From positions 32,001 through 96,000 of the IMG/VR virus record IMGVR_UViG_3300005614_000001: a stretch of 64,000 nt of DNA, one strand, 5' to 3'. A model generated the notes under the pieces. It saw only the letters and a program-made list of their open reading frames with translations. It searched no databases and had not been told where the DNA came from. This DNA is from a virus. Its lineage: Duplodnaviria > Caudoviricetes. How positions within the stretch are numbered: position 1 is the stretch's first letter; each line of letters begins with the position of its first letter. A program made the position numbers and the translations under genes. This document shows, in pieces, positions 56,824 through 58,246 of this stretch.

Positions 56824-56985
56824 GTTGAGGGTATATATTCTATAGTAATATATTCTATTATATTATAGTATATAATAAATAATAACTTGATAAGTGTAAA
56901 AATTAATAACAATTGTTAGTAAATAAATAACAATTGTTTTCTTTTTGTCCTACATTATACATATATTTGCACAAAATAATATATA

Positions 56986-57408
56986 ATGAAAGATAAATCA
57001 ACAAGATCTCCTAACATTAAGTCTTACCCTGAACATGAAAGTAACCCATTCCCTATGGATAACCTATTAGAGCAGCCTGATTATACTGTTCCTGGATTAC
57101 ATATAGGGGAGAAATGTGTTGCTTTTAGTAACAAGTATCCAAATGTTATGTACACCCTGGATAAGCCTGGGATGAAGGGGTTATTGTATATAACATCTAA
57201 ATTAGTTATAGGGGTGCATGAAGTGTGTATATCTCAGGTAGAATTCAACGAGTATGGTAAGTATAAACAATCTAATAGGTATGCTTACTATAAAGCTTTA
57301 GATCAGTTATTGGAGACTGGGGTTATTGCCAGGAAGAAGAATTATAATAATTGCTTCTTTGTGAACCCTGAAGTGATGCAGGCTACTGTTGAATTCTTCT
57401 ATAAATAA
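56986..57408 (+). CDS. RepL-like winged-helix replication protein
   Basis: 140 aa; L.YI...L...YYKAL.QLLE.GVIAR....FFVNPEV; TATATTTG -7 element at 56962. Confidence 0.6.
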   Translation: MKDKSTRSPNIKSYPEHESNPFPMDNLLEQPDYTVPGLHIGEKCVAFSNKYPNVMYTLDKPGMKGLLYITSKLVIGVHEVCISQVEFNEYGKYKQSNRYAYYKALDQLLETGVIARKKNYNNCFFVNPEVMQATVEFFYK

Positions 57409-57419
57409 CTCCTAATTAC

Positions 57420-57728
57420 ATGAAAGATACTGATATATATGGTATTATTTATGCTTGGGTTATGAAGAGTAAAGAAATTGAAATTGGCCCTAAAGCACTG
57501 TATGCTCTTCTCTGTACCTATAGAGAGGCATCTAATAATACCTGTTTCCCTGGAGATAGTAAGCTTGCTGAACAGCTAATGGTTGACATTAGGACTATCA
57601 GGAGATATATGCTTGCACTTCAACAAGCCAGAATAATAGAGAGAATTACTCTATTTGATCCTCACTCAGGGAAGAAAAAAAGAACCATTCTCCTTACCGA
57701 TATAGTGAAATTTAAGGAAAAAGCATAG
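57420..57728 (+). CDS. Helix-turn-helix protein (phage replication-initiator N-terminal type)
   Basis: KALYALLCTY.....CFPG...LAEQL.V..RTIRRY...L....IIER. Confidence 0.75.
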   Translation: MKDTDIYGIIYAWVMKSKEIEIGPKALYALLCTYREASNNTCFPGDSKLAEQLMVDIRTIRRYMLALQQARIIERITLFDPHSGKKKRTILLTDIVKFKEKA

Positions 57729-57789
57729 GACATGTATGTCCTAATATATAGGACACAGGTGTCCTAAGGTATAGGACATGGGTGTCCTA
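57726..57789. repeat. Three palindromic iterons TAGGACA-N4-TGTCCTA at 23-bp period
   Basis: Copies at 57726-57743, 57749-57766, 57772-57789. Confidence 0.9.
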
Positions 57790-58076
57790 TATAACATTAC
57801 CATAATAACAATACAATAGAACAATACCAGGGAAAGTTTATCAAAATTTTGCAGACTGCAGGGAGCAATTTGCCTATCCCGGCAGTAAGTAGTTCCCAAT
57901 AGCAGTAAATAATTATTGGTTCAAAGTAATTCCCAACAGTCTATACTATCTGTAGGGATACTATAAGCGTCAATTCCTGGTAACTAATAAGAGATAATTA
58001 CTACTATAGTATCAAAATACAACGCTTATACTACCGGAGTAGATAGTATAGCACACAAATATTAACTTTTAGTTAA

Positions 58077-58092
58077 TGTTCCACGTGGAACA
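58077..58092. promoter_or_regulatory. parS: parS centromere-like site
   Basis: TGTTCCACGTGGAACA, perfect palindrome (18 bp with flanks), intergenic, matches bacterial chromosomal parS consensus. Confidence 0.85.
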
Positions 58093-58246
58093 TAGTAAAT
58101 TTATTCCATTTGTAGGTATTAAAAGAGCTGAATACTACGTATATAGTCTGAAATCAAACTAATTGAGTAGTTAAATAGCTACGGGTACTGATATAGTATA
58201 GCATTAACAACATATTTTTATATATTTACACTTAAAATCAATTATT

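What the first reader, a model, noticed from the sequence alone, without database searches (positions are those of the whole stretch)
56905..58093. Plasmid-like replication cassette with an orphan chromosomal parS: possible host-ParB hijack by a crAss-like phage
Seen: within 1.2 kb lie two operator-like palindromes, a RepL-like gene, an HTH initiator-like gene, three phased 18-bp palindromes, a structured AT-rich spacer and a perfect parS (TGTTCCACGTGGAACA). No ORF in the window shows a ParB GERRxRA or ParA Walker-box motif. Known: chromosomal parS sits near oriC and loads ParB (and SMC); some Bacillus phages carry host parS; crAss-like phages persist in carrier states and RepL has been linked to a phage-plasmid lifestyle. 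Inference: an ori-proximal mini-centromere lets the phage episome be segregated by host ParABS/SMC without encoding a partition system.
Basis: partly seen in the sequence, partly recalled or inferred. Interest (0 to 1): 0.9.

Follow-up and report, generated by a model that had tools for sequence, protein, structure and literature searches.

The report
Host-type parS site in crAss-like phage
A 117-kb crAss-like phage that has no partition genes carries one perfect copy of the bacterial chromosome "centromere" sequence (parS) in non-coding DNA beside its strand switch; look-alike sites recur at the same place in about 40% of related phages, so it is probably a real docking site for the host's ParB protein, as is already known for Bacillus phage phi29.

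Summary
It is the only parS-like site in the complete 116,928-bp phage genome, and it is intergenic. The genome has no ParB_N, ParA-type or RepL Pfam match.

This 16-mer is the highest-affinity parS of P. aeruginosa. It is also the commonest variant I saw listed in Bacteroidales genomes.

Among 45 related phages (portal 53-61% identical) that hold the strand-switch region, 16 have a site with at most 2 mismatches there. A reversed control pattern gave 0.

On IMG/VR contigs, 30 of 106 exact sites are intergenic, against 0 of 58 for a control palindrome. Of 50 long parS-bearing viral records, 47 lack ParB_N.

- Relatives have no RepL-like or HTH gene next to their site, so the "replication cassette plus parS" unit is not conserved.
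- The nearest relatives and 17 gut Suoliviridae have no site.
- The spacer is not AT-rich.

Host ParB binding is well supported but untested. A segregation role is inferred. Phi29 is a precedent, so this is a new variant of a known kind.

The parts
58077..58092 (.). Perfect 16-bp host-type parS, TGTTCCACGTGGAACA. With its flanks it forms an 18-bp palindrome at 58076-58093. It is intergenic.
   Evidence: single copy in the whole genome. The sequence is identical to P. aeruginosa parS2/parS3 (PMC4368675) and to the commonest listed Bacteroidales variant. Its A/A and A/T flanks fit the flank bias of bacterial sites.
57790..58246 (.). 457-bp non-coding stretch that holds the parS. It includes an imperfect 30-nt inverted repeat at 57941-57970 / 58022-58051.
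   Evidence: No ORF of 60 aa or more. No Rfam family. The inverted repeat is 77% complementary. The ssDNA fold of 57925-58100 gives z -3.1. AT content is 62-71%, not above the genome mean.
57726..57789 (.). Three palindromes of the form TAGGACA-N4-TGTCCTA, 23 bp apart. The first overlaps the stop codon of the wHTH gene. They are probably binding sites of a phage wHTH protein.
   Evidence: They are unique to this spot in the genome. A further TGTCCTA half-site at 56946 lies inside the promoter region of the RepL-like gene. The binding protein is inferred.
57420..57728 (+). 102-aa stand-alone winged-helix protein (HTH_36). It resembles the N-terminal domain of phage replication initiators and DnaD-like loaders.
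   Evidence: Pfam HTH_36 scores 28.3 bits against a cut-off of 25. PHROG hits are phrog_270 (replication initiation protein) at 2.4e-7 and phrog_186 (DnaD-like) at 1.7e-5. There are 191 relatives at E<=1e-3; the nearest are 38-40% identical, and many are 250-500 aa.
56986..57408 (+). 140-aa ORFan with a RepL-like predicted fold.
   Evidence: The only match in the 5.8-billion-cluster protein search is itself. No Pfam RepL match. ESM-Atlas neighbours are clusters partly annotated RepL, with feature score 0.95 and structure TM 0.75.
56905..56938 (.). Two copies of AATAACAATTGTT, 21 bp apart, upstream of the RepL-like gene. They look like operators.
   Evidence: A Bacteroidota-type -7 motif, TATATTTG, at 56962-56969 follows them. 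Its function is inferred.
56402..56761 (+). First protein gene of the rightward block (119 aa from the internal ATG). A hairpin at 56786-56811 follows it.
   Evidence: No family match. In relatives G223 and G224 a 139-aa first rightward ORF is followed directly by the parS. That ORF shows no detectable similarity to this one.
53685..54065 (-). Conserved 126-aa phage-only winged-helix protein. Its homolog marks the edge of the leftward block in relatives, 0.3-1.4 kb from their parS-like site.
   Evidence: tblastn gives 36-43% identity in relatives. ESM-Atlas places it among phage-only clusters with weak wHTH structural neighbours.

Best explanation
The palindrome at 58077-58092 is a working copy of the host's chromosomal parS, carried by a phage that encodes no ParA and no ParB. 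After the DTR genome circularises in the cell, host ParB-CTP dimers would load at this single site. They would then slide over the neighbouring early and strand-switch region to form a partition complex. The host ParA system, and possibly SMC, could use that complex to position and hand down phage genomes during a non-lytic carrier or episomal phase.

The neighbouring RepL-like and wHTH genes, with their own palindromes, are a separate, lineage-specific replication or regulation module that happens to sit next to the site.

What is shown: sequence identity to proven parS sites, absence of phage ParA/ParB, an intergenic position, and recurrence at the same place in related phages. What is inferred: ParB binding in this host, spreading, a segregation role, and the carrier state.

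The confidence given is for this whole statement, partition role included. That the site is a functional host-ParB site in some role I put at about 0.7.
For: 1. The site is an exact, unique, intergenic 16-mer in a complete genome.
2. The same 16-mer is the highest-affinity parS of P. aeruginosa. One such site plus parAB stabilises an unstable plasmid (PMC4368675; PMC7022226).
3. It is widespread in bacteria, often as clusters. In the order of an uncultured Bacteroides genome (presumably Bacteroidales), 107 of 151 genomes have TGTTNCACGTGNAACA and 0 have the reversed control. The phage's variant is the commonest among the listed places.
4. The phage is probably a Bacteroidota phage. It has crAss-like structural genes, Shine-Dalgarno-like motifs before only 7 of 153 genes, and a portal homolog from a contig binned as Cytophagia.
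5. In 29 long related records, 11 have a site with at most 1 mismatch, against 0 for the control. Seven of these sit in the intergenic strand-switch region. In 45 relatives that hold that region, 16 have a site with at most 2 mismatches, mostly 290-565 nt from the same conserved gene. The control gave 0, and about 0.4-0.7 are expected by chance.
6. On IMG/VR contigs, exact sites are intergenic in 30 of 106 cases, against 0 of 58 for the control palindrome TGTTCCAGCTGGAACA. They also share the A-rich, C-poor flank bias of bacterial sites.
7. Only 3 of 50 long parS-bearing viral records encode ParB_N.
8. Phi29 carries five host parS sites and uses Spo0J for segregation into the prespore (PMC2731898).
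Against: - No binding or stability data exist, and the host is not identified.
- The three nearest relatives in the portal tree (portal 59-61%) and about 26 of the 45 relatives have no such site. The tree needs at least 7 gains or losses.
- In this phage the site is about 4 kb from the conserved marker gene, not 0.3-1.4 kb, so homology of position is loose.
- Raw counts on IMG/VR do not prove enrichment. The parS scan stopped at 120 contigs, while two control palindromes gave 3 and 66.
- 17 complete gut Suoliviridae have none.
- No independent origin signal lies next to the site.
- A carrier or plasmid state is unproven for this phage.
Confidence: 0.5

Rival explanations
1. The site binds host ParB, but not for partition. 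ParB clamps spreading from a site beside the early promoters and the RepL-like/wHTH module could damp early transcription or replication, acting as a lysis/dormancy switch. Alternatively, many replicating phage copies could soak up ParB or attract SMC, disturbing host chromosome segregation or helping to organise phage DNA.
For: The site lies 290 bp after the wHTH palindromes and about 155 bp before the next gene. In relatives it lies inside the divergent promoter region. A plasmid carrying this exact palindrome cannot be established when ParB is in excess (PMC4368675). parS mimics on SGI1 displace the helper plasmid (PMC10954446). The patchy distribution fits an accessory, host-dependent function.
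Against: There is no expression or copy-number data. Silencing by chromosomal ParB is usually mild. The same comparative evidence fits partition equally well.
Confidence: 0.22
2. It is a chance or passenger palindrome with no function. It would be a neutral sequence, perhaps picked up from host DNA, that happens to equal parS.
For: The nearest relatives lack it. A control palindrome with the same arms occurs on 66 IMG/VR contigs. The scan that flagged this window looked at very many windows, so some chance hits are expected.
Against: Expected occurrences per genome are about 4e-4 for the 16 accepted variants (my estimate from base composition). The site is intergenic, while all 58 control sites are coding. 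Sites recur at the same place in relatives with 0 control hits. Outside the palindrome, the flanks show no similarity to the bacterial loci fetched.
Confidence: 0.13
3. It is the operator of a phage-encoded DNA-binding protein and only resembles parS. Candidates are one of the winged-helix proteins or the conserved 126-aa protein at the edge of the leftward block.
For: Three small wHTH-type proteins are encoded within 4.5 kb. In relatives the site is 0.3-0.6 kb upstream of the conserved wHTH gene.
Against: About 26 of 45 relatives have that gene but no site. The wHTH and RepL-like genes have their own different palindromes and are absent next to the site in relatives. The variation among relatives (C/T at position 5, G/A at position 12, changes mainly at the outer bases) is the variation seen among bacterial parS sites. 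Identity to parS over 16-18 bp is very unlikely by coincidence.
Confidence: 0.07

Closest known systems
Host parS (Spo0J-binding) sites on Bacillus phage phi29
   Same: A virulent phage without parA or parB carries copies of the host chromosomal parS. It uses the host ParB homolog to have its genome segregated during a non-lytic phase (PMC2731898).
   Different: Phi29 has five sites on a 19-kb protein-primed linear genome, and the purpose is entrapment in the spore. Here there is one site, on a 117-kb crAss-like DTR genome of a probably non-sporulating Bacteroidota host. The site lies at the strand switch, and nothing has been shown experimentally.
parS mimics on SGI1 that hijack IncC plasmid ParAB
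   Same: A mobile element with no partition genes carries the centromere sequence of another replicon and is stabilised by that replicon's ParAB (PMC10954446).
   Different: SGI1 copies a plasmid parS, not the chromosomal one. It is an integrative element, and it also expels its helper.
Chromosomal parS (e.g. P. aeruginosa parS2/parS3; Bacteroidales sites)
   Same: Identical 16-bp sequence. A single site is sufficient for function in P. aeruginosa (PMC4368675). The flank bias is the same.
   Different: It lies on a phage genome, not near oriC, and there is no cognate parAB on the same replicon.
Phage-plasmids with their own ParABS (P1, N15)
   Same: The phage genome would be kept as an episome by a ParB-parS complex.
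   Different: Those phages encode ParA, ParB and a private parS. This one has no ParB_N or ParA-type match in the whole genome and uses the host-type sequence.
RepL genes at the start of the rightward block of the prototypic crAssphage (proposed phage-plasmid)
   Same: A RepL-like gene lies near the start of the rightward, non-structural gene block, next to the strand switch and the GC-skew turn (PMC10983915).
   Different: The gene here does not match the RepL HMM. That paper reports no parS or ParB (0 mentions). The sampled gut Suoliviridae have no parS.

Membership tests
Chromosomal-type parS (ParB loading site) | 16-bp palindrome matching TGTTNCACGTGNAACA | tested here: met
   16 of 16 positions match, and the palindrome is perfect. 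It is identical to the proven P. aeruginosa parS2/3.
Chromosomal-type parS (ParB loading site) | Specific, CTP-dependent binding by a ParB protein | not testable with these tools
   Needs EMSA, BLI or ChIP with a host ParB.
Chromosomal-type parS (ParB loading site) | The host encodes ParB and uses the same sequence on its chromosome | tested here: inconclusive
   The host is unknown. Bacteroidota is the likely phylum. In the order sampled (presumably Bacteroidales), 107 of 151 genomes carry the motif, often this exact variant. ParB_N is present in 4 of 5 Bacteroidota genomes checked.
Chromosomal-type parS (ParB loading site) | Kept by selection: recurs at the same place in related replicons | tested here: met
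   16 of 45 relatives have a site with at most 2 mismatches in the strand-switch region, against 0 for the control. The pattern is patchy, and the nearest relatives lack a site.
Chromosomal-type parS (ParB loading site) | Lies close to the replication origin | tested here: inconclusive
   It sits about 2 kb from the cumulative GC-skew minimum, which coincides with the strand switch. No DnaA-box cluster or AT-rich unwinding element was found.
Complete ParABS partition cassette | parA (Walker-type ATPase) and parB on the same replicon | tested here: not met
   No AAA_31 or ParB_N match at E<=1 in the whole genome.
RepL (PF05732) | Match to the family HMM | tested here: not met
   No match at E<=1 in the genome. 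The protein scan returned no RepL match at E<=0.1. NCBIfam found none.
RepL (PF05732) | RepL-like fold or embedding neighbours | tested here: inconclusive
   ESM-Atlas feature score is 0.95 with 177-178 shared features, to clusters in which 19-32% of members carry RepL (76% in a lower-ranked cluster). Structure TM is 0.75. This is a lead only.
HTH_36 winged-helix (N-domain of phage initiators/DnaD-like loaders) | Pfam match above the curated cut-off | tested here: met
   28.3 bits against a cut-off of 25. PHROG hits are phrog_270 and phrog_186. The protein has only this domain, so an initiator function is not shown.
Iteron-type plasmid origin | Phased repeats next to a rep gene, plus an AT-rich unwinding element and DnaA boxes | tested here: inconclusive
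   Three phased palindromes are present. They are palindromes rather than direct iterons, and there is no AT-rich element or DnaA-box cluster beside them.

The most novel reading that the evidence does not exclude
Orphan host-type parS sites would be a widespread and repeatedly gained phage device for plugging into the host ParABS/SMC machinery, well beyond phi29. In this environmental crAss-like clade they would form a one-site centromere at the strand switch that underlies long-term carrier-state persistence without lysogeny genes.
Probability: 0.3. Interest if true: 0.8.

Novelty: new variant of a known kind. Interest (0 to 1): 0.6.

Why it matters
How crAss-like and other 'virulent' phages persist for long periods without integration is an open question. 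A host-type centromere on the phage genome gives a concrete, cheap test: mutate one 16-bp site, or run a ChIP for host ParB. If it works, host ParB hijack extends from one Bacillus phage family to Bacteroidota phages. It would also suggest, from the many ParB-less IMG/VR genomes with intergenic parS, that this is a common strategy. Practically, a parS scan could flag phages that are likely to form carrier states.

Tried and rejected
- Close relatives could not be found with single-protein queries. Megablast and blastn against the phage collection, and single-protein scans of IMG/VR with the RepL-like, HTH and portal proteins, all found nothing. Relatives appeared only with a portal alignment.
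- The first control palindrome (3 IMG/VR contigs) suggested at least 40-fold enrichment. A second control with the same arms gave 66, so I dropped the raw-count argument and used position and flank statistics instead.
- A nine-member group of 54-106-kb contigs (the complete ones about 105 kb) has the parS inside a conserved gene of about 350 aa with unknown function. The five long records tested (four from this group) are not crAss-like by portal searches. This was not pursued.
- No gene family in the switch region clearly co-occurs with the site among relatives.
- The first rightward ORFs of this phage and its relatives show no detectable similarity.
- No Rfam family lies in the spacer. No DnaA-box cluster was found.
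- In the Bacteroidota genomes checked, parB does not lie beside the parS, so proximity to parB could not serve as a check.
- Literature searches found no report of parS in crAss-like phages and no general survey of orphan parS in phages.

Full report
**What the window is**

The window is bases 32001-96000 of a complete viral record. The record is 116,928 bp long, has 80-bp direct terminal repeats and is 34.4% G+C. Its large genes are a crAss-type set:
- The portal matches phrog_6547 at 6e-96.
- The terminase matches phrog_6681.
- There is a major head protein and giant virion proteins of 4019, 1827 and 1624 aa.

By tblastn the portal is only 24-29% identical to Leptolyngbya phage Lbo-JY46 and to named Crassvirales. 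The phage is therefore a distant crAss-like phage.

Genes run leftward up to about window 55.8 kb and rightward from about 56.1 kb. The cumulative GC skew has its minimum at the same place. Only 7 of 153 crude gene calls have a Shine-Dalgarno-like motif. A TATATTTG motif of the Bacteroidota -7 type precedes the RepL-like gene. One portal homolog comes from a contig binned as Cytophagia. A Bacteroidota host is likely but not shown.

**The observation**

- Two copies of AATAACAATTGTT lie 21 bp apart, at 56905 and 56926.
- A 140-aa ORF lies at 56986-57408.
- A 102-aa ORF lies at 57420-57728.
- Three TAGGACA-N4-TGTCCTA palindromes lie 23 bp apart, starting at the stop codon of the second ORF. The + strand of the whole genome has four TAGGACA, and three are here.
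- A 457-bp non-coding stretch follows, with a 30-nt imperfect inverted repeat.
- TGTTCCACGTGGAACA lies at 58077-58092.

The parS is the only match in the window even with 2-3 mismatches allowed, where shuffles give 0.09-0.13. It is also the only match in the whole genome. With its flanks it is one of three 18-bp perfect palindromes in the genome.

No ParB_N, ParA-type AAA_31, RepL or Rep_OBD match exists anywhere in the genome.

Two details need correction. The spacer folds better than shuffles (z -3.1) but is not AT-rich. No DnaA-box cluster accompanies it.

**The two genes**

The 102-aa protein is a stand-alone HTH_36 winged helix, above Pfam's cut-off. It resembles the N-terminal domain of phage replication initiators and DnaD-like loaders. 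It has only that domain.

The 140-aa protein has no sequence relatives in a 5.8-billion-cluster search and no RepL HMM match. Its ESM-Atlas neighbours, by features (0.95) and by predicted structure (TM 0.75), are phage clusters partly annotated RepL. 'RepL-like' is therefore a reasonable lead, not a membership.

The TAGGACA palindromes, together with a TGTCCTA half-site inside the promoter region of the RepL-like gene, suggest that this small module regulates itself. That is inference.

**Is the 16-mer a real parS sequence?**

Yes, as a sequence. It is the perfect-palindrome parS2/parS3 of P. aeruginosa, which ParB binds with the highest affinity. One such site is sufficient for chromosome segregation, and with parAB it stabilises an unstable plasmid (PMC4368675; PMC7022226).

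The hits span many phyla, include many Bacteroidota, and often show 2-5 clustered copies.

In 151 genomes of the order of an uncultured Bacteroides genome (presumably Bacteroidales), 107 carry TGTTNCACGTGNAACA and none carries the reversed control. The phage's exact variant is the commonest among the listed places.

**Conservation in relatives**

A portal alignment (A1) retrieved 80 IMG/VR relatives with 53-61% portal identity.

Of 29 long records, 11 have a site with at most 1 mismatch and none has the control. Four of these look like chance: one lies inside the capsid gene, and the others have changes in the core. The other seven are G224 and G223 (exact match), G229 and G215 (...AACC, the P. 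aeruginosa parS1/4 variant), G221 and G216 (TGTTCCACGTGAAAAA), and G218. All seven lie in the intergenic region where the leftward block ends. That is 0.3-1.4 kb beyond the homolog of window ORF 53685-54065, in a syntenic run that leads back to the terminase.

Looking only at that region in the 45 relatives that contain it:
- 16 have a site with at most 2 mismatches, mostly 290-565 nt from the gene.
- The control has none, and I estimate 0.4-0.7 would be expected by chance.
- About 19 keep the inner TT[CT]CACGTG[GA]AA palindrome.
- The changes are mostly at the outermost bases, or are the C/T and G/A alternatives seen in bacteria.

The pattern is patchy. A quick portal tree needs at least seven gains or losses. 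This phage groups outside the main clade with three relatives that have no site (long branches, so the placement is unsure).

Seventeen complete gut Suoliviridae have no site at all.

**The site is not tied to the 'cassette'**

In relatives the site is followed or preceded by unrelated small ORFs. In G223 and G224 the order is a first rightward ORF (139 aa), a hairpin, the parS, then small ORFs. No homolog of the RepL-like or wHTH gene was found near any of these sites.

In this phage both genes, with their palindromes, lie between the first rightward ORF and the parS-bearing spacer. The simplest reading is that the parS belongs to the strand-switch or early non-coding region of the phage, and that the RepL-like/wHTH module is a local addition.

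**parS on phages in general**

Two control palindromes gave 3 and 66 contigs, so raw counts prove little.

Position does discriminate:
- 30 of 106 parS sites are intergenic, against 0 of 58 for the control with the same arms.
- In low-GC loci the figures are 15 of 46 against 0 of 46.
- Only the parS sites show the A-rich, C-poor flanks seen at bacterial sites.

Of 50 parS-bearing records of 27 kb or more, 3 encode ParB_N. Of the 28 that are at least 90% complete, 2 do. Orphan host-type parS therefore seems common on phage genomes. I found no paper that surveys this.

**Mechanism and rivals**

The best-supported reading is that host ParB loads at the site. What follows from that is inferred.

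Partition of an episomal or carrier-state genome is the reading with direct precedents:
- Phi29 carries five host parS sites and uses Spo0J for segregation into the prespore (PMC2731898).
- SGI1 uses parS mimics to ride the IncC ParAB system (PMC10954446).
- Single chromosomal parS sites stabilise plasmids.

A ParB-dependent but non-partition role fits the position beside promoters equally well. Such a role could be silencing of the early region, titration of ParB, or recruitment of SMC. It also fits the report that this palindrome blocks plasmid establishment when ParB is in excess.

Chance, or a phage-encoded binder, is unlikely for the reasons given under the rival explanations.

**Comparison with what is known, and verdict**

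The principle is known from phi29: a virulent phage without par genes carries host parS. New here would be:
- the phage group (crAss-like) and the probable host phylum;
- a single site at the strand switch;
- recurrence across a deep clade;
- the hint that this is widespread.

The proposed phage-plasmid lifestyle of the prototypic crAssphage rests on RepL genes at the same relative position. That paper does not mention parS or ParB (PMC10983915), and the gut family I sampled has no site.

I rate this a new variant of a known kind. It is of good but not exceptional interest, and one mutation or one ChIP experiment would decide it.

**Limits**

The relatives are related to each other, so counts are not independent events. 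The tree is a quick one.

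Noticed in passing
window 56079-56144 and 56153-56223 (+): Rfam calls two adjacent tRNAs, at 31.5 and 39.8 bits against a gathering score of 29. They sit right after the strand switch. ARAGORN finds no tRNA anywhere in the window. They may be degenerate tRNA-like elements.
   Followed up: no
window 56030-56051: A perfect 8-bp G+C-rich hairpin scores as a terminator on both strands. 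It lies in the divergent region between the leftward and rightward blocks.
   Followed up: no
L192:242-1288, L210:5476-6552 and seven other IMG/VR loci (L137, L154, L196, L197, L198, L204, L232): A group of 54-106-kb phage contigs at 34-39% GC; three of the four long records tested have DTRs. The four tested did not match crAss-like portal queries. All nine carry the exact parS at a conserved codon position (about 97-107 in most) inside a homologous gene of about 350 aa with no family match.
   Followed up: partly
L166:2675-4384, L168, L205: The exact parS lies at codon 149 of a protein-primed type B DNA polymerase gene (DNA_pol_B_2) in three related small viral contigs.
   Followed up: no
L341 around 8088 and L342 around 8032 (relatives G221, G216): The parS-like site TGTTCCACGTGAAAAA is bracketed by runs of C and G (for example ...catcccccctggtt[site]acccccctatccgtgaggggacggg). 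This may be a structured element in the divergent region.
   Followed up: no
window 58504-58821 and 59196-59531 (+): Two paralogous small genes just downstream of the parS both match phrog_18067 (unknown function), at 3.6e-15 and 3e-17. They share the N-terminal motif KFKEKWIAALRSGEYKQ / RFKERWVKALRSGKYKQ.
   Followed up: no
window 48430-51585 (-): The terminase large subunit is 1051 aa. Only residues 6-610 match the terminase family. Residues 604-713 match other PHROGs of unknown function, so there is an extra C-terminal part.
   Followed up: no
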